Shown here piece after piece: positions 21,046 through 26,755 of a DNA stretch of 26,755 bases. The notes below the pieces were generated by a model. That model was given only the letters and a program-made list of their open reading frames with translations. It searched no databases and was not told where the DNA came from. Within the stretch, counting starts at the first letter, position 1, and every line of letters starts with the position of its first letter. The DNA is from a virus, in UHGV virus genome UHGV-0229226; one strand, given 5' to 3'. Both the position numbers and the translations under genes were made by a program.

Positions 21046-21941
21046 AAATCCACCCCGTAAATCCAGTCAGTGTTTGTCAGGTCGAGTTTTGGTTTGCAGG
21101 CTGTCACACCTGCCTGTTGCTTGTTACGGTTGATTTCGAGCTGGGTCCACTTGTCGCGGAGTTTGGCCGGGCTCAGCACGTTACCGGACCAGAAGTTGTC
21201 CTGGCATGCCCAGCGGAACAGTACACACATGTCGCGATGGTTACGTCCGTCACGTTCACGCATCAGGCGGATATCGTTAGCCCACCCTGCAAAATTCGGT
21301 TTTCTGGCTGATGGCGCGATGGTCTTCACCATGTCAAACATCCATTCTGCGGCGGTCAGGTCTTCTGCTGTCCCCCACTTGCTGCCGCTCTGAATTGCAG
21401 CATCCGGTTTCACCACAGAAAGGTCGTTTTCTGGCTGGTCAGAGGATTCGCCAGAATTCTCTGACGAATAATCTTTTCTTTTTTCTTTTGTAATAGTGTC
21501 TTTTGTGTCCCCCTGTTTTGAGGGATAGCAATCCCCCAATTTGAGGGATGTTTTATCCCTCGTTTTAGGGGATTTTCCCTCGTTTTGAGGGATACACCAT
21601 TCTGAGATGTTTTTATTTGGTCCAAACATGCCGCCTTGCTGCTTGATAATATTCATTCTGACGAGTTCTAACTTGGCTTCATTGCACCGTTTGACGGGTA
21701 ACTTTGTAATCTCGCTAAGTTGAGAATCGGTGATTCTGTCCATTGGTTTATTCCATCCATAGGTTTTACGCAGAATGGCAAGCAGCACTTTAAACTGTCG
21801 CTTGGTCAGATCTGCGCCTGAATAAGCCTCAAGCAGCATATTTGATAGTCTGGCGTAACCATCATCGAGATCTGCCACATTACGCTCCTGTTTGGCAAAG
21901 TTACCTCTGCAGAAGTTGAGTATTTTTGCTGTATTTGTCAT
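21042..21941 (-). CDS. O: Replication initiator protein O
   Basis: 299 aa, MTNTAKILNF...GADLTKRQFKVLLAILRKTYGWNKPMDRITDSQLSEITKLPVKRCNEAKLELVRMNII..., near-identical to lambda O. Contains the ori iterons. Confidence 0.95.
   Translation of the reverse strand: MTNTAKILNFCRGNFAKQERNVADLDDGYARLSNMLLEAYSGADLTKRQFKVLLAILRKTYGWNKPMDRITDSQLSEITKLPVKRCNEAKLELVRMNIIKQQGGMFGPNKNISEWCIPQNEGKSPKTRDKTSLKLGDCYPSKQGDTKDTITKEKRKDYSSENSGESSDQPENDLSVVKPDAAIQSGSKWGTAEDLTAAEWMFDMVKTIAPSARKPNFAGWANDIRLMRERDGRNHRDMCVLFRWACQDNFWSGNVLSPAKLRDKWTQLEINRNKQQAGVTACKPKLDLTNTDWIYGVDL
21450..21595. repeat. Replication origin (ori-lambda type): four ~19-bp iterons plus adjacent AT-rich region, inside the O gene
   Basis: Four iterons of the lambda ori consensus type at about 21508-21526, 21531-21549, 21555-21573 and 21576-21594 (tccccctgttttgagggat, atcccccaatttgagggat, atccctcgttttaggggat, tccctcgttttgagggata). 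The AT-rich tract at 21450-21505 lies downstream in the O reading direction. Confidence 0.85.
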
Positions 21942-21973
21942 AATGACTCCTGTGGATTGATCCAGTAATGACC

Positions 21974-22270
21974 TCAGAATTCCATCTGGATTTGTTCAGA
22001 ACGCTCGGTTGCCGCCGGGCGTTTTTTATTGGTGAGTCCATCAAGCGCATACTTAAAAGCCCTGCTAATCGGACTGATGTCTGATGCCATTCCGAAAGCA
22101 CACAAGACCGAAGCAATAAATCTCCAGTCCGTTCTGCTTATCTTCGATTCATGACAGCCAATCATCTTTGCCAGACCGCGCTGGGTAATAGCTGACAGAT
22201 TGATAAGTAAATCTGTTTCTGCGCGATCAACGTCACGCTGTGATAGTTTGCTGTAACTTGTTCTTTCCAT
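21974..22270 (-). CDS. cII: Transcriptional activator CII
   Basis: 98 aa in the cro-cII-O order. The C-terminus ...TNKKRPAATERSEQIQMEF matches the lambda CII C-terminus; the N-terminal half diverges. Confidence 0.8.
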   Translation of the reverse strand: MERTSYSKLSQRDVDRAETDLLINLSAITQRGLAKMIGCHESKISRTDWRFIASVLCAFGMASDISPISRAFKYALDGLTNKKRPAATERSEQIQMEF

Positions 22271-22355
22271 TTCTTAAGATTTCCAATAGTGAATAGTTAG
22301 TTGAAAGGTATGCGTGGAAACGCATATGGCCTTAGTTGGTCAGATATCTTGGAAC

Positions 22356-22401
22356 TCGCTTTTCAGCGACGTAGGACGAATGTCCGTTGTTACAAAGAGC
22401 G
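22356..22401 (-). promoter_or_regulatory. nutR: boxA-like CGCTCTTTG plus boxB hairpin TCGCT-GAAA-AGCGA
   Basis: On the minus strand just after the cro stop: CGCTCTTTGTAA (plus 22390-22401), then about 20 nt on the hairpin TCGCTGAAAAGCGA (plus 22356-22369). Spacing and boxB loop match the nutL candidate at 25036-25081. Confidence 0.5.
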
Positions 22402-22411
22402 GATCCGCTTA

Positions 22412-22627
22412 TTAAGCGGCTTTGTGTTCCGGCGGGAACACGTCATCAAGACTGACTTTTGCGCCTAACTTGTTTAGGCACGCAACAAGAGCACGGCATG
22501 TTTTAAGGTCTGGGAAGCGACGACCAGATTCCCAATGTCCGATAGCTCCCTGTGTGCATCCAACTGCCTTAGCAAGTGTTGTTTGAGAGATATTCAGTGA
22601 CTCTCGATATTTTCGTAGGTTGCTCAT
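22412..22627 (-). CDS. cro: Cro repressor (HTH)
   Basis: 71 aa from the ATG at 22627, which has a GGAGG Shine-Dalgarno: MSNLRKYRESLNISQTTLAKAVGCTQGAIGHWESGRRFPD..., a helix-turn-helix. Divergent from cI. The longer ORF-track ORF would run across the operator region. Confidence 0.8.
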   Translation of the reverse strand: MSNLRKYRESLNISQTTLAKAVGCTQGAIGHWESGRRFPDLKTCRALVACLNKLGAKVSLDDVFPPEHKAA

Positions 22628-22744
22628 ATGCCCTCCATAGTAAACACGAATAAAAAAATACAATATGTACTTTGCGAATACAAGTAAAAATACACATTGT
22701 GCATGGATGGTTCCAGTACAGAGCGTAATAATAAGGACATGAAA
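22628..22744. promoter_or_regulatory. Immunity-region control region (OR operators with PR and PRM), inferred
   Basis: 117-bp AT-rich gap between divergent cro and cI. It contains the palindrome CACATTGTG and AGTAC-type half-sites like those near PL. Exact operators and promoters are not resolved by eye. Confidence 0.45.
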
Positions 22745-23398
22745 ATGAAATGGTATGAACTGGCTAGATCCAGAATGAAAGAGCTCGGCATAACTCAAGA
22801 GAAGTTAGCCGAAGAGCTAGGTATGACGCAGGGTGGGATTGGACACTGGTTGCGCGGATCTCGTCATCCATCTCTTAGTGATATTGGTGTGGTGTTTAAA
22901 TACCTTGGTATTGATAACATATCATTCAACCACGACGGGACATTTTCACCTGTTGGCGAATACTCATCGGCCCCAGTTAAAAAACAATATGAGTACCCTG
23001 TTTTTTCTCATGTTCAGGCTGGGATGTTCTCTCCAGAACTCAGAACCTTTACCAAAGGCGATGCGGAGAGATTGGTAAGCACAACCAAAAAAGCCAGTGA
23101 CTCTGCATTCTGGCTTGAGGTTGAAGGTAACTCAATGACCGCACCAACAGGTTCCAAACCCAGCTTTCCTGACGGGATGTTAATTCTGGTTGACCCTGAG
23201 CAAGCTGTTGAGCCCGGCGATTTCTGCATAGCCAGACTTGGTGGTGATGAATTTACCTTCAAGAAACTGATCAGGGATAGCGGTCAGGTGTTTCTACAGC
23301 CACTAAACCCACAATACCCAATGATCCCATGCAATGAGAGTTGTTCCGTTGTGGGGAAAGTTATCGCCAGCCAATGGCCTGAAGAGACGTTTGGGTGA
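22745..23398 (+). CDS. cI: CI-type prophage repressor (HTH plus S24 LexA-like autopeptidase domain)
   Basis: N-terminal HTH ([23 protein letters not shown]) and C-terminal S24 domain with the catalytic Ser in GNSM and the Lys in FKKL. Start is 22745 (best Shine-Dalgarno spacing) or 22739; the ORF-track start 22697 is a TTG inside the operator region. Confidence 0.85.
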
Positions 23399-23437
23399 TG
23401 AAACCACTTTTATCTACAATTTACAGGGCGGTAAACA

Positions 23438-23995
23438 TTGGCAAAAATAGATGATTATCAGCCAAGCCAAGTAGAAGTTGATAAAGTACTTTATTGTAAA
23501 AAAATAGTTAACTTTTCTGGCGTTAAATGGAAACAGAAACCAAGTCGCTCTGATATGTGGCTACAAGCCCATATCATCCCCTTGGATGAGGATTGTATAC
23601 CTATACAAGGGCTAAAGTTTGAACTGAAATGGAAACCAGATCAGGATTCAGAACCTGATGACCCGATTTCTTACCCTAAAATAAATATTATTGCTTTCTA
23701 TCATAACAAGAGGGTTTTCGCGGTAGATACCTATCACTTTGACAAACACACGAATAGTTACAAGGTCGATCATCCGAAGTACCAAGATATCATTTACGGT
23801 GCTCACTACCATGTATACTATGAAGAAGCTGGATACTATAGTGATAGAATAGCGTTTCCAATCGAAGATGACATAAACCCAGATGACCTGGTAGGGTATT
23901 GGAATTACTTCTGTAAACATCTGAACATAACTTACTCTGGGAGAATACCTTTACCGCTTGAAGATGAGTCGGGGCAAATGGGGTTTGGAATATGA
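23438..23995 (+). CDS. Hypothetical protein, first gene of the cassette in the rexAB position
   Basis: 185-aa ORF 40 nt after cI on the same strand. Soluble, rich in Tyr, Asp and His, with no motif I recognise. Low-GC codon usage. Its stop overlaps the next start (ATGA). Exact start codon is uncertain (see findings). Confidence 0.6.
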   Translation: MAKIDDYQPSQVEVDKVLYCKKIVNFSGVKWKQKPSRSDMWLQAHIIPLDEDCIPIQGLKFELKWKPDQDSEPDDPISYPKINIIAFYHNKRVFAVDTYHFDKHTNSYKVDHPKYQDIIYGAHYHVYYEEAGYYSDRIAFPIEDDINPDDLVGYWNYFCKHLNITYSGRIPLPLEDESGQMGFGI

Positions 23996-24744
23996 TGTGC
24001 TCAACAGTGATCTCACAACTAGGTTTCGAATGCCATCCAATAGGCAAGACCTTGAGAATTATCAGTCCATTCACTTACTGTGATGATGGAGAGCATGTCG
24101 GTGCCTTTATCCGTGAAGTCAATGGTAGGTATTTAGTTAGTGACAGATGCGATGCCTTAATGAATATGGAGGCAAGAGGGATCTCGCTTACCAAAAAACG
24201 ACTTGATGAGATACGACAATTACTGCTTAAAGAAGGCGCAGAACTCAATGCTCGAGGAGAAATCATTGCTTGGGCAACAGAAAAGGATGTCGGTGCGATT
24301 ACATCGAACATAATTAGAGCTGGTATACTCGCATCAACTTTGTCGTTAGACTGGTATCAGCCAGTTCAAGCTGAAAAGTTTGAAAGTATGGTTATTGATT
24401 ATCTATATCACACAGAGCTTAGAGACGCACTTTCTCTTCGTGAAAACGTATATGGCTTGAGTGGACATCAAATTACCGTCCCTGTAACAATAAAAACCGA
24501 CATACCTAAATACGTTTTTACATCAAGCGTGAAACACGGAGGAAGCTGGAATAGTGCTTACTCATTGCTTGGGAAACTAATTGATCTTAAAGCTTCAAGT
24601 GAGGAGTATAACAACAGATTTGTTGTTATAGACAGCGAAGCAATTGGTGATCAAATGCAACAACTCTCCTTACTCTTCCATGAATCAAGCCAAGTTCTAC
24701 CATTCTCCAAAAGAGAGACTTGGGTTAAGAGACTTGCAGCATAA
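23992..24744 (+). CDS. Hypothetical protein, second gene of the cassette in the rexAB position
   Basis: 250-aa ORF translationally coupled to the previous gene and followed by a strong terminator. No recognisable family. Low GC. Confidence 0.65.
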   Translation: MMCSTVISQLGFECHPIGKTLRIISPFTYCDDGEHVGAFIREVNGRYLVSDRCDALMNMEARGISLTKKRLDEIRQLLLKEGAELNARGEIIAWATEKDVGAITSNIIRAGILASTLSLDWYQPVQAEKFESMVIDYLYHTELRDALSLRENVYGLSGHQITVPVTIKTDIPKYVFTSSVKHGGSWNSAYSLLGKLIDLKASSEEYNNRFVVIDSEAIGDQMQQLSLLFHESSQVLPFSKRETWVKRLAA

Positions 24745-24748
24745 TACA

Positions 24749-24775
24749 ACCCGGCCTCAGCGCCGGGTTTTCTTT
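24749..24775 (+). terminator. Rho-independent terminator ending the cI-cassette operon
   Basis: ACCCGGC-CTCAGC-GCCGGGT, a 7-bp GC stem, followed by TTTTCTTT, 5 nt after the stop of the second cassette gene. Confidence 0.6.
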
Positions 24776-24948
24776 GCCTCACGTTCGCCCACCTAAAAAC
24801 ACATAACCAATTATATTTATTGAAAAATAAATAGATGCAACCCACTAAACCACGCAATTCTGATCTCTCCTTACATCGCCGAGGCAATACATCCACGCTA
24901 AAAAACAACACTATTAAATACAAAGCGTTATAAAAAACCACGCCAACT

Positions 24949-24991
24949 TACAACAAATTGTATTGATCTTGTAAAGTACATATCGTACTAT
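24949..24991 (+). promoter_or_regulatory. Candidate OL operators and PL promoter
   Basis: Palindromes TACAACAAATTGTA (24949-24962) and AGTACATATCGTACT (24975-24989) overlap a plausible promoter, TTGATC, 17 bp, TACTAT, pointing toward N. Confidence 0.4.
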
Positions 24992-25035
24992 TTAACCGTC
25001 AGCAGGACGCTGGAAGCCAAATGGAACAGACTGGC

Positions 25036-25081
25036 AGGCTCTTTAAACAACGTCGACTCTCGACTACGTGGCTGAAAAGCC
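25036..25081 (+). promoter_or_regulatory. nutL: boxA-like GGCTCTTTAA plus boxB hairpin TGGCT-GAAA-AGCCA
   Basis: boxA-like sequence at 25036-25045 and the hairpin TGGCTGAAAAGCCA at 25068-25081, about 100 nt upstream of N. Same architecture as the nutR candidate. Confidence 0.5.
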
Positions 25082-25180
25082 AGATCACCCAACCACATAA
25101 GCTGTGGGATGCAATGCCGAAGCAACCGTCTCAGGAGGAGCTTCGAGATTGCATCGCCAAAGTTTATTCGGGAGGAATCC

Positions 25181-25453
25181 ATGTCCAGAAAAACAGAATT
25201 TAAAGGCACCGCAGCTTCTCGCCGTAGAGCTCGTCGCGCAAATCTGCAAAGTCAGGAGGCGATCAGCTCCGACAAGCTACACAGGCCAACCCCTTCACGA
25301 GTGGTCTTGCAATGCAAGCTCAAACCAGCAATGAGAGCAGAAGTGATAACTCTGACAACGTTGACCAGAAAATATGAAGGTTCAACTTGTCTTCCGAACG
25401 TAGCTCTTTACGCGGCAGGCTACCGGAAATCAAAACAACTGACGGCGAGATGA
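25181..25453 (+). CDS. N: Early antiterminator N (arginine-rich motif)
   Basis: 90 aa from the ATG at 25181, which has a GGAGGA Shine-Dalgarno. N-terminal arginine-rich motif GTAASRRRARRANLQ. Sits downstream of PL/nutL, in the lambda position relative to cI. Confidence 0.75.
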   Translation: MSRKTEFKGTAASRRRARRANLQSQEAISSDKLHRPTPSRVVLQCKLKPAMRAEVITLTTLTRKYEGSTCLPNVALYAAGYRKSKQLTAR

Positions 25454-25469
25454 TAAATTCATTTGCTAA

Positions 25470-26051
25470 TTACTTGTTTTTGCCATGCTTATCCTGAGCG
25501 ATAAGTTCATCCATAAGGCTGTCTGCCTTCCCGGCAAACCTAATGTAGCACTCATGTCTATAGCTTTCAGGGATAACGAAACGGTCGGTATCAGGATATC
25601 CAACAGCAGGAGGCCTTCGAACGAGGAGTCCTTTTTTGAGCAATGAAATTGATTCATGAGCGCCCTTTTCCGTTTGTAGCTGGTTATTAGCGGCTACAGC
25701 GAATGCCAAATACGCTCTTTCTCCAAGAGTTAACGAATCAAACAAATCTTGCACATATTTTTCTTCTTTAGATTTGCGCTTCTGAGCAGCGAATACCTCA
25801 ATTCTTTCAGTCACAGCGTGATAAGCGGAATTAACAACGCCGTTAAGCACATAGCTAACGCAAAACAACAGGATGTAATACATCCAGTAATGAGGAAGGA
25901 TTTCTGGACTATGCAGGTTTATCCATTCTTTTACGCTTACCGGCATAACAATAATCAATATGATCAGGATGATTAGCATATGAATCAACTGTTTAAGTGT
26001 CATTCCTTGCAGGAAAAAATGCATTAGTTCCTGCCACCATGAGTTGTTCAT
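25470..26051 (-). CDS. sieB: Superinfection exclusion protein B-like membrane protein
   Basis: 193 aa with an N-terminal hydrophobic segment (LIHMLIILIILIIVMPV), a second hydrophobic segment, and a C-terminal soluble domain. Convergent with N and located between N and ral, exactly as sieB is in lambda. Confidence 0.55.
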   Translation of the reverse strand: MNNSWWQELMHFFLQGMTLKQLIHMLIILIILIIVMPVSVKEWINLHSPEILPHYWMYYILLFCVSYVLNGVVNSAYHAVTERIEVFAAQKRKSKEEKYVQDLFDSLTLGERAYLAFAVAANNQLQTEKGAHESISLLKKGLLVRRPPAVGYPDTDRFVIPESYRHECYIRFAGKADSLMDELIAQDKHGKNK

Positions 26052-26194
26052 CGGCGTTTCTCTTTTGCTCTCTGTAGGGGTGAATAGAGTTTATCCGATT
26101 TCTCGTTGTAGGGGTACACGAGAACCACCGAGCCTGATGTGGTTAAAAGACAGGCACAATCTTTACTACCGCAATCCACTATTTAAGGTGATAT

Positions 26195-26281
26195 ATGGAA
26201 GAAGAATTTGAAGAGTTCGAAGAGCATCCTCAAGATGTGATGGAACAATACCAGGACTATCCGTATGACTACGACTATTGA
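26195..26281 (+). CDS. Small acidic protein (lambda orf28-like)
   Basis: 28 codons, MEEEFEEFEEHPQDVMEQYQDYPYDYDY, with an AAGGTG Shine-Dalgarno; overlaps the ral start. Below the ORF-track cut-off. Confidence 0.5.
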   Translation: MEEEFEEFEEHPQDVMEQYQDYPYDYDY

Positions 26282-26465
26282 TACAAATCAATGGTGTGGA
26301 CAATTCAAACGATGCAATGGATGCAAGCTGCAATCGGAATGCATGGTTAAGCCTGAAGAAATGTTTCCTGTAATGGAAGATGGGAAATATGTCGATAAAT
26401 GGGCAATACGAACGACGGCAATGATTGCCAGAGAACTTGGTAAACAGAACAACAAAGCTGCCTGA
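26265..26465 (+). CDS. ral: Restriction alleviation protein Ral
   Basis: 66 aa, MTTTIDTNQWCGQFKRCNGCKLQSECMVKPEEMFPVMEDGKYVDKWAIRTTAMIARELGKQNNKAA, near-identical to lambda Ral as I recall it. Confidence 0.85.
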   Translation: MTTTIDTNQWCGQFKRCNGCKLQSECMVKPEEMFPVMEDGKYVDKWAIRTTAMIARELGKQNNKAA

Positions 26466-26511
26466 TAGTGGCCTTTATTTTTGGCATAAATAACAGAATA
26501 AACACTGCACT

Positions 26512-26539
26512 GTGTATTCATTCCAACGAGTGAATACAC
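26512..26539 (+). repeat. Perfect 9-bp inverted repeat GTGTATTCA ... TGAATACAC
   Basis: Arms at 26512-26520 and 26531-26539 with a 10-nt spacer, in the gap downstream of ral. Could be an RNA hairpin or a protein-binding palindrome. Confidence 0.5.
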
Positions 26540-26601
26540 GGAGCAATGTCGCTCGTAACTAAACAGGAGCCGACTTGTTCTGATTATTGGAAATCTTCTT
26601 T

Positions 26602-26629
26602 GCCCTCCAGTGTGAGGGCGATTTTTTAT
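26602..26629 (+). terminator. Rho-independent terminator downstream of ral
   Basis: GCCCTC-CAGTGT-GAGGGC hairpin followed by GATTTTTTAT. Confidence 0.5.
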
Positions 26630-26647
26630 CTATGAGGATATGAATAG

Positions 26648-26755
26648 ATGTCAAACATCAAAAAATACATCATTGATTACGACTGGAAAGCATCAATAGA
26701 AATTGAAATTGACCATGACGTAATGACAGAGGAAAAACTTCACCAGATTAATAAT
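26648..26755 (+). CDS. Hypothetical protein, partial (continues beyond the window end)
   Basis: ATG at 26648 preceded by GAGGA; reads MSNIKKYIIDYDWKASIEIEIDHDVMTEEKLHQINN... and is open to the window end. AT-rich. Not lambda cIII. Confidence 0.4.
   Translation, partial: MSNIKKYIIDYDWKASIEIEIDHDVMTEEKLHQINN

What the first reader, a model, noticed from the sequence alone, without database searches (positions are those of the whole stretch)
23438..24775. Uncharacterised two-gene cassette in the rexAB position, co-transcribed with the cI repressor
Two translationally coupled ORFs (185 aa and 250 aa, ATGA overlap at 23992-23995) start 40 nt after cI on the same strand and end at a strong terminator just before PL/OL. 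This is the slot that lambda uses for the rexA-rexB exclusion genes, i.e. genes expressed in the lysogen together with the repressor. The cassette is visibly lower in GC than the flanking cI, N and replication genes, which points to separate acquisition. Neither protein shows a motif I can assign to Rex or to any named family by eye. Position, lysogen expression and cargo-like composition make this the best candidate in the window for a previously undescribed phage-exclusion or defence module.
Basis: partly seen in the sequence, partly recalled or inferred. Interest (0 to 1): 0.85.

Follow-up and report, generated by a model that had tools for sequence, protein, structure and literature searches.

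The report
Two-gene cargo replacing rexAB after cI
A pair of overlapping genes of unknown function sits exactly where phage lambda keeps its rexAB exclusion genes, travels between prophages as a unit, and has been predicted but never tested as an anti-phage defence system; it is present in E. coli CFT073 and Nissle 1917.

Summary
Genes A (23438-23995, 185 aa, TTG start) and B (23992-24744, 250 aa) overlap by ATGA. They start 39 nt after cI and end 3 nt before a strong terminator upstream of OL/PL. They form a 1347-bp low-GC cargo block (23401-24747). In four other phages with the same flanks, this block is swapped for unrelated genes. In IMG/VR phages carrying lambda's own cI, the same cassette replaces rexA-rexB to the nucleotide.

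A and B were adjacent in all 94 related loci analysed (Enterobacterales, Aeromonas, metagenomes) and in a Pseudomonas phage, nearly always just downstream of a prophage repressor. At least 13 repressor types are involved.

B is DUF1828 (secretion-chaperone-like fold) plus a restriction-endonuclease-like domain that lacks a conserved catalytic motif. A has no recognisable fold but carries an invariant Asp/His/Asn cluster. Neither is Rex-like.

The pair is a distant relative of the untested PADLOC candidate PDC-M24. Both exact proteins are listed as "predicted novel defense gene" in DefensePredictor (2026), where they were not screened.

Best reading: a lysogen-expressed two-protein defence module whose mechanism is unknown. 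It is a good, testable candidate, but others have already flagged it.

The parts
22703..23398 (+). cI repressor (HTH_3 + Peptidase_S24). This is the upstream gene of the presumed operon. Its 3' half (22988-23398) is the conserved left flank used for cassette exchange.
   Evidence: Pfam; annotation of the identical phage PhiR57_1; 94-98% nucleotide identity of 22988-23398 to lambda-immunity contigs.
23401..24747 (+). Exchangeable cargo block (1347 bp) between the cI stop codon and the terminator.
   Evidence: Homology to PhiR11_1, 2B8, HK542 and VT2-Sakai breaks at 23396-23401 and resumes at 24742-24748. GC is 0.38-0.41 against 0.47-0.50 in the flanks.
23438..23995 (+). Gene A, 185 aa (WP_001062368.1). 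Soluble, beta-rich, with no fold match. Invariant residues across the family are R92 D97 H104 N106 G121 H123 H125 and Q180. The C-terminal tail (SGQxGxxx) is conserved but predicted disordered. The start codon is non-ATG.
23992..23995 (+). ATGA stop/start overlap between A and B (translational coupling).
   Evidence: ATGATG or another stop/start overlap is kept in the 48 distinct cassette variants.
23992..24744 (+). Gene B, 250 aa (WP_000968518.1). The N-terminal domain is DUF1828 (aa ~10-115) with a secretion-chaperone/DUF2170/XisI-like fold. The C-terminal domain (aa ~125-250) has a restriction-endonuclease-like fold (DUF1829, PD-(D/E)xK clan) without a conserved D...(D/E)xK motif. The C-terminus is ...RLAA.
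24748..24779 (+). Intrinsic terminator closing the cI-A-B unit. It belongs to the conserved right flank, not to the cargo.
   Evidence: This region is shared with 215 phage records at 87-99% identity.
24945..24995 (.). OL/PL region. It holds operator-like palindromes (TACAAcaaaTTGTA, AAGTACATAT) that are shared with OR at 22656-22674.

Best explanation
The cassette is a mobile accessory module of temperate phages. It is expressed in the lysogen from the repressor's promoter, in the same way as lambda rexAB, and most likely protects the lysogen against other phages.

Shown:
- It is a discrete 1347-bp cargo block between the cI stop codon and the operon terminator.
- It is exchanged by recombination in the conserved flanks. 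Those flanks are the 3' half of cI and the terminator region.
- It substitutes exactly for rexAB behind lambda's own cI.
- A and B are strictly co-inherited, overlap at stop/start, and are under purifying selection.
- Both proteins are soluble and cytoplasmic.

Inferred:
- cI-A-B is a single transcript from PRM.
- A and B work as a complex.
- A is the effector. It has an invariant D97/H104/N106/H123/H125 cluster that looks like a metal or catalytic site. Its start codon is kept weak (GTG or TTG in 45 of 48 variants), which suggests it is dosage-sensitive.
- B is the restraining or sensing partner. Its chaperone-like DUF1828 domain would bind a peptide, possibly A's conserved C-terminal tail or a phage protein. 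Its degenerate nuclease-fold domain would bind nucleic acid rather than cut it. Its conserved ssrA-like ...LAA C-terminus would make it a ClpXP substrate.
- Infection would upset the A:B balance or B's ligand state and release A. That would stop the infected cell or the incoming phage (abortive infection in the style of a toxin-antitoxin pair).

My confidence that it is a lysogen-expressed anti-phage module is about 0.6. My confidence in the specific roles of A and B is about 0.25.
For: Position and cargo nature:
- Flank breakpoints against four phages.
- Exact rexAB replacement in L048.
- Alternative cargoes in the same slot.
- Low GC.
- No terminator between cI and A, and a terminator directly after B.

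Linkage to repressors:
- The pair lies downstream of HTH/S24 or short HTH repressors in Aeromonas, Salmonella, Yersinia, Providencia, Xenorhabdus, Pantoea, Thorsellia, Izhakiella, metagenomic relatives and a Pseudomonas phage.
- At least 13 repressor clusters are involved.
- The cI-N region is a known hotspot that holds rexAB and bstA (Owen et al. 2021, PMC8585504).

Obligate pair:
- A and B were adjacent in 94/94 loci.

Defence prediction:
- B matches PDC-M24B over its full length (E 5e-10).
- A matches the core of PDC-M24A (E 5e-4).
- Other A-family members hit further PDC-M24A models.
- PDC-M24 is a two-gene candidate found embedded in BREX, DISARM or type I RM loci.
- DefensePredictor Tables S5 and S10 list both exact proteins as one operon of 'predicted novel defense genes'.

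Roles of A and B:
- Invariant residues in A.
- Non-ATG start codons for A.
- B's nuclease-fold domain lacks a conserved D...(D/E)xK motif.
- B ends in xLAA in 34/41 clusters.
- A's tail is conserved but predicted disordered.
Against: - No experiment exists. The pair was not among the units screened in DefensePredictor (Table S6), and PDC-M24 is itself untested.
- The A match to PDC-M24A and to DUF6978 is weak and partial, below Pfam's gathering score.
- The cassette here is not embedded in an RM or BREX locus, which was the basis on which PDC-M24 was proposed.
- Expression in lysogens is inferred from the layout only.
- The effector/regulator assignment could be the reverse. B's N-terminal domain is the most conserved part of the system and has invariant D32, E34, D51 and E90, which could form an active site.
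- A evolves faster than B, which would suit a sensor as well as an effector.
- The LAA-degron idea rests on three residues.
- Direct comparison with the only validated DUF1829-labelled protein (DS-6B of HipAD) found no similarity.
Confidence: 0.6

Rival explanations
1. It is a defence module with the opposite division of labour. B is an active, non-canonical nuclease that attacks incoming phage DNA, using either its restriction-endonuclease-like domain or the acidic cluster in its DUF1828 domain. A is a fast-evolving specificity or sensor subunit.
Against: The window's own B has I-P-K, not E-x-K. The usual Asp position is Gly-His. H159 and K173 are not kept in distant relatives. A's invariant Asp/His/Asn cluster would have no explanation if A were only a sensor.
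Confidence: 0.17
2. It is a toxin-antitoxin-like addiction module. Its selected role is to stabilise the prophage, or to kill cells that lose it, and it has no meaningful anti-phage activity.
For: The operon is compact and overlapping. The first gene has a weak start codon. The second protein may carry a degron. The pair is strictly co-inherited and horizontally mobile.
Against: The proteins are larger than typical type II pairs. Neither has an HTH or RHH antitoxin domain or a known toxin family. The cassette is tied to the repressor operon slot that holds exclusion genes in lambda and BTP1. Relatives are embedded in RM/BREX loci. TA function and defence are not mutually exclusive.
Confidence: 0.12
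3. It is a lysogenic-conversion or regulatory cargo unrelated to phage exclusion. For example, it could modulate host physiology or virulence, or tune the prophage's own induction.
For: The function is untested. The slot also carries cargoes of unknown function. The cassette is common in uropathogenic and commensal B2 strains such as CFT073 and Nissle 1917. It is always linked to the lysis-lysogeny switch.
Against: It occurs behind both cleavable S24 repressors and short non-S24 Gifsy-type repressors, so it is not tied to one induction mechanism. Both proteins are cytoplasmic, with no signal peptide or TM segment. Two defence predictors flag it.
Confidence: 0.1

Closest known systems
Lambda RexA/RexB
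   Same: The genomic slot is identical, shown by nucleotide-exact replacement behind lambda cI. Both are two genes on the repressor strand that end at the immunity-region terminator, and both are presumably made in the lysogen.
   Different: There is no sequence or family similarity: no Pfam RexA/RexB hit and no PADLOC Rex hit. RexB is a multi-pass membrane protein, whereas A and B have no hydrophobic segment (maximum 19-residue Kyte-Doolittle mean 0.45 and 1.19). A membrane-depolarisation mechanism is therefore unlikely.
PADLOC phage defence candidate PDC-M24 (Payne et al. 2024, bioRxiv 10.1101/2024.01.29.577857; cassette CAS_00098, FAM_00129>>FAM_00065)
   Same: The order is the same: a small protein followed by a roughly 250-aa protein. 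B aligns end to end with PDC-M24B (E 5e-10). A aligns over its conserved His/Asn core with PDC-M24A (E 5e-4).
   Different: The relationship is distant. The A match is partial and weak. PDC-M24 was defined from genes embedded in BREX, DISARM or type I RM loci, while this cassette lies in prophage immunity regions. PDC-M24 has no experimental support or known mechanism.
BstA of Salmonella prophage BTP1 (Owen et al. 2021, PMC8585504)
   Same: It is a defence gene encoded directly downstream of the prophage repressor. That synteny is conserved across diverse prophages, and it presumably shares the repressor promoter.
   Different: BstA is a single protein with an unrelated sequence, and its self-immunity comes from a DNA element (aba). 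No homology was found here.
DS-6 / HipAD (DefensePredictor, PMC13092281)
   Same: It is a validated two-protein system whose second protein carries a DUF1829 label and is proposed to be the antitoxin-like partner.
   Different: Its effector is a HipA-family kinase, which is absent here. The DUF1829 call in DS-6B is weak (HHpred 78%), and hhalign between B and DS-6B finds nothing (probability 0.1%).

Membership tests
RexAB | RexA-family protein (Pfam RexA; PADLOC Rex models) | tested here: not met
   No hit for A or B at E<=1 in Pfam or PADLOC.
RexAB | RexB-type polytopic membrane protein | tested here: not met
   No TM-like segment in either protein; no Pfam RexB hit.
RexAB | Location between cI and the immunity terminator, on the same strand as cI | tested here: met
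   exact replacement of rexAB in L048.
PADLOC PDC-M24 | PDC-M24B-type protein | tested here: met
   PDLC04540, E 4.7e-10, aa 2-249 aligned to profile positions 4-254 of 256.
PADLOC PDC-M24 | PDC-M24A-type protein immediately upstream | tested here: inconclusive
   PDLC04536, E 4.8e-4, covering only aa 104-163 against 79-134 of 148. Other A-family members hit PDLC04533/04536/04538 at 2e-4 to 7e-3. PADLOC's own thresholds could not be applied.
PADLOC PDC-M24 | Embedded in or next to BREX, DISARM or type I RM loci (the basis of the candidate) | tested here: not met
   All loci examined lie in prophage immunity regions or other mobile-element contexts.
Pfam DUF1828 | Score above the gathering threshold | tested here: met
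   B aa 26-110 scores 33.5 bits against a cut-off of 22.
Pfam DUF1829 / PD-(D/E)xK clan | Profile match to DUF1829 | tested here: inconclusive
   hmmscan finds no hit for the C-terminal domain at E<=0.1. HHpred in DefensePredictor Table S5 gives 98.8% for aa 155-241.
Pfam DUF1829 / PD-(D/E)xK clan | Restriction-endonuclease-like alpha-beta-beta-beta-alpha-beta fold | tested here: met
Pfam DUF1829 / PD-(D/E)xK clan | Conserved catalytic D...(D/E)xK residues | tested here: not met
   The expected positions hold G158-H159 and I171-P-K173 in the window protein. Only S157, G158, T177 and D198 are invariant across the family.
Pfam DUF6978 | Score above the gathering threshold | tested here: not met
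   A scores 22.0 bits against a cut-off of 29.6, over aa 104-164 only. Eleven of 19 family members give similarly weak hits.
Type II toxin-antitoxin system | Two small co-transcribed, translationally coupled genes | tested here: met
Type II toxin-antitoxin system | Toxicity of one product that is neutralised by the labile other product | not testable with these tools
   Only indirect hints: a weak start codon on A and a C-terminal LAA on B.
HipAD (DS-6) | HipA-family kinase plus a DUF3037/DUF1829 partner | tested here: not met
   No kinase domain. hhalign of B against DS-6B gives probability 0.1%.

The most novel reading that the evidence does not exclude
A-B is a mechanistically new, repressor-linked anti-phage system that is functionally interchangeable with RexAB. 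A is a small enzyme with a previously unseen fold. It is held in check by a DUF1828-DUF1829 partner that combines a secretion-chaperone-like peptide-binding domain with a catalytically dead nuclease fold. Infection, or loss of the labile partner, releases the enzyme. If so, this would give the first function to DUF1828, to the DUF6978-like family and to the PDC-M24 candidate family, and it would explain part of the phage resistance of Nissle 1917 and CFT073 lysogens.
Probability: 0.3. Interest if true: 0.75.

Novelty: new variant of a known kind. Interest (0 to 1): 0.58.

Why it matters
The region between cI and PL is the classic home of prophage-encoded exclusion genes (rexAB, bstA). This cassette is a natural, nucleotide-exact substitute for rexAB, built from two protein families with no known function.

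It is carried by 241 of 5426 complete E. coli genomes, including the model uropathogen CFT073 and the probiotic Nissle 1917. In Nissle 1917, 'other genes of prophage 3' have been suspected of contributing to resistance against lambdoid and Stx phages (Bury et al. 2018, PMC5987069).

Showing that it defends would validate a PADLOC candidate family and a DefensePredictor prediction. It would assign a role to DUF1828/DUF1829. It would also provide an isogenic system (lambda rexAB versus A-B) for comparing exclusion mechanisms.

If it does not defend, that would be an informative false positive for two defence-prediction approaches.

Tried and rejected
- Rex homology: no Pfam or PADLOC hit and no membrane segment.
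- NCBIfam: nothing for either protein. PHROGs gives only unknown-function families 2017 and 1960.
- Sequence search of solved structures with four profiles found only noise. The apparent E 5e-12 hit of the A profile to a designed Kelch propeller (8pjr) is six repeats of a short 'RIYAV..HxN' resemblance. Each repeat has an individual E-value of 30-120, so I discount it.
- HipAD analogy: hhalign was negative.
- Bury et al. 2018 'phage repressor' phenotype in Nissle 1917: their primers map to the cII ORF (21956-22316), not to cI or the cassette. That phenotype therefore says nothing about A-B.
- Rfam scan of 21500-26755: no RNA family.
- Promoter scan: no more promoter-like sites than in shuffled sequence (5 found, 6.4 expected), so there is no evidence for a promoter within the cassette.
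- Plasmids: no homologue of B.
- Brenes & Laub 2025 (Cell Host Microbe), which may have isolated the PhiR phages, could not be read. I cannot exclude that the cassette was tested there.

Full report
WHAT IS THERE

The window is a lambdoid prophage or phage in reverse orientation. The order is P, O, cII and cro on the minus strand, then cI, two ORFs, a terminator, OL/PL and N on the plus strand, followed by sieB. Over 23300-24900 it is 100% identical to Escherichia phages ev207, ev017, PhiR57_1 and PhiR63_2.

- Gene A is 23438-23995: 185 aa, TTG start, with the conserved N-terminus MAK.
- Gene B is 23992-24744: 250 aa.
- The two overlap in ATGA.
- cI ends at 23398, and no terminator-like site lies between cI and A.
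- A strong hairpin followed by a T-run starts 3 nt after the stop of B (24748-24779).
- Operator-like palindromes shared with the cI/cro intergenic region lie at about 24945-24990.
- GC is 0.38 (A) and 0.41 (B), against 0.465 for cI and 0.495 for N.

A DISCRETE, EXCHANGEABLE CARGO IN THE rexAB SLOT

Four phages share the flanking DNA at 93-99% identity: PhiR11_1, 2B8, HK542 and VT2-Sakai. Their homology stops at window 23396-23401 and resumes at 24742-24748. Between those points they carry unrelated genes:

- PhiR11_1: a 283-aa plus 163-aa pair.
- 2B8: a NYN-domain protein.
- HK542: a 144-aa plus 206-aa pair.
- VT2-Sakai: orf22.

The cargo block is therefore 23401-24747. The terminator belongs to the conserved backbone.

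The clearest result comes from IMG/VR contigs L048-L051 and L107, which encode lambda's own cI (97-99% aa identity). In L048, homology to lambda runs from 38700 to 37226, which is the cI stop. It resumes at 35826, one base after the rexB stop. The A-B cassette fills the gap. The cassette is thus a natural allelic replacement of rexA-rexB.

The left recombination flank is the 3' half of cI, which is 94-98% identical between the window and the lambda-immunity contigs. The right flank is the terminator region. The cI-N interval is already described as a mosaic hotspot that holds rexAB and bstA (Owen et al. 2021, PMC8585504).

DISTRIBUTION AND LINKAGE

- E. coli genomes: the cassette is in 241 of 5426 complete genomes, always single-copy, chromosomal and at least 99% identical. 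These include CFT073, Nissle 1917 and ATCC 11775.
- Other collections: it is in five GenBank coliphages including one Stx1a phage, in 114 IMG/VR contigs, and in no PLSDB plasmid.
- Protein families: both are small. A profile of A found only 20 representatives among 1.84 billion proteins. B has 47 clusters in the 5.8-billion-protein set.
- Pairing: in all 94 related loci analysed, A and B are adjacent with overlapping stop and start. This holds for relatives at about 22-32% identity.
- Pseudomonas: in phage phPA-G the A homologue is unannotated.
- Upstream gene: the same-strand upstream gene is a prophage repressor in nearly all cases. At least 13 sequence clusters are represented. Nine of ten representatives have HTH plus Peptidase_S24 or a cI-type HTH. 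The non-cleavable Gifsy-type repressors of Salmonella are among them.
- Selection: dN/dS is 0.03-0.14 with synonymous sites saturated. A diverges faster than B in 97% of pairwise comparisons.

THE PROTEINS

Both are acidic and soluble, with no membrane segment.

Protein B:
- It matches Pfam DUF1828 over aa 26-110, above the gathering score.
- Its AlphaFold model (pLDDT 83) has two domains.
- The strand and helix order of aa 129-213 is the canonical alpha-beta-beta-beta-alpha-beta core.
- An HHpred annotation published with DefensePredictor assigns aa 155-241 to DUF1829, PD-(D/E)xK clan, at 98.8%.
- The catalytic signature is not conserved. The expected positions hold Gly-His and Ile-Pro-Lys in this protein. 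Only S157, G158, T177 and D198 are invariant across the family.
- The most conserved part of B is the N-terminal domain (C3, C14, D32, E34, D51, E90).
- B ends in xLAA in 34 of 41 clusters. This resembles the ClpX-recognised end of the ssrA tag. That link is my inference from established knowledge of ClpXP C-motif 1.

Protein A:
- It is beta-rich, with a confident model (pTM 0.80).
- It has only weak, sub-threshold similarity to DUF6978.
- Across the whole family R92, D97, H104, N106, G121, H123, H125 and Q180 are invariant. This suggests a metal or catalytic site.
- A conserved C-terminal peptide (SGQxGxxx) is predicted to be disordered.
- A starts with GTG or TTG in 45 of 48 distinct variants.

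WHAT IS KNOWN ABOUT IT

- PADLOC's library gives B a full-length match to PDC-M24B (E 5e-10) and A a partial match to PDC-M24A (E 5e-4). Nothing else in PADLOC matches.
- PDC-M24 is one of 145 untested 'phage defence candidates'. They were proposed because the genes are embedded in BREX, DISARM or type I RM loci (Payne et al. 2024).
- The exact proteins are WP_001062368.1 and WP_000968518.1. They appear in DefensePredictor Tables S5 and S10 as one operon of 'predicted novel defense genes', with mean log-odds of 4.9-6.3.
- They are absent from the tables of units selected for screening, plaque assays and validated systems.
- Full-text searches found no paper that discusses DUF1828 or DUF6978 functionally.
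- The Nissle 1917 'phage repressor' that reduced lambda and Stx phage plating (Bury et al. 2018) maps to the cII ORF of this same prophage, not to the cassette.
- I could not read Brenes & Laub 2025, which may be the source of the PhiR phages.

INTERPRETATION

The positional, compositional and comparative evidence makes a strong case for a lysogen-expressed accessory module of the same kind as rexAB and bstA. Two independent computational predictors point to defence.

I put the probability of an anti-phage role at about 0.6. A pure addiction module and a non-defence conversion function are the main rivals.

For the mechanism, I favour A as a dosage-sensitive effector and B as a labile restraining or sensing partner. 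The reasons are these:
- B's nuclease fold is degenerate.
- A carries the cleaner active-site signature.
- A's start codon is kept weak.
- B has a possible degron.

This is inference (about 0.25). The reverse assignment is a live alternative, in which B is a non-canonical nuclease and A is the sensor. The analogy with HipAD, where a DUF1829-labelled protein is the antitoxin-like partner, did not survive a direct profile comparison.

VERDICT

It is a well-delimited, experimentally tractable candidate, not an unnoticed novelty. I score interest at 0.58 and novelty as a new variant of a known kind.

Noticed in passing
window 21956-22316 (cII ORF 21974-22270, minus strand): The primers used by Bury et al. 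2018 (PMC5987069) to clone and quantify the 'phage repressor pr' (EcN_1294) of Nissle 1917 prophage 3 map here, on the cII-family gene, not on cI. The reported 215- to 243-fold drop in lambda and Stx phage plating therefore came from a high-copy cII clone.
   Followed up: partly
L026 2122-3502 (PhiR11_1); L011 2650-3701 (HK542); L010 2727-3584 (2B8); L027 2179-2700 (VT2-Sakai): The same cI-to-terminator slot holds other cargoes with no assigned function: a 283+163 aa pair, a 144+206 aa overlapping pair, a NYN-domain protein with weak PADLOC HEC-09/NYN hits, and orf22. These are further untested candidates for lysogen-expressed functions.
   Followed up: partly
L109 2920-3504 (Pseudomonas phage VB_PaD_phPA-G, PP083311.1): An unannotated ORF here is a clear homologue of gene A (E 2e-25). 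It overlaps the annotated B homologue by ATGA and lies downstream of the CI-like repressor. This extends the pair to Pseudomonas D3-like phages.
   Followed up: yes
L018 4044-4385, L020 4053-4394, L021 4052-4393: In Izhakiella and Providencia prophages a 113-aa DUF3024 protein (Pfam E 3e-27) is inserted between the repressor and gene A. It could be a third component or a separate piece of cargo.
   Followed up: no
window 25470-26051 (minus strand): A SieB superinfection-exclusion homologue (Pfam E 9e-22; PHROG 1301) lies just past N, so this prophage carries a second exclusion function next to the cassette.
   Followed up: no
window 25021-25203 (plus strand): A 60-aa ORF in the PL-N leader region is annotated as a hypothetical protein in CFT073 (HW370_RS14340) but not in PhiR57_1. 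It is probably not a gene, because it covers the expected nutL/leader region.
   Followed up: no
window 22988-23398: The part of cI that encodes the C-terminal (S24) half is 94-98% identical at the DNA level to that of lambda-immunity phages, while the N-terminal DNA-binding half is unrelated. This is a mosaic junction inside cI, and it doubles as the left recombination flank for cargo exchange.
   Followed up: partly
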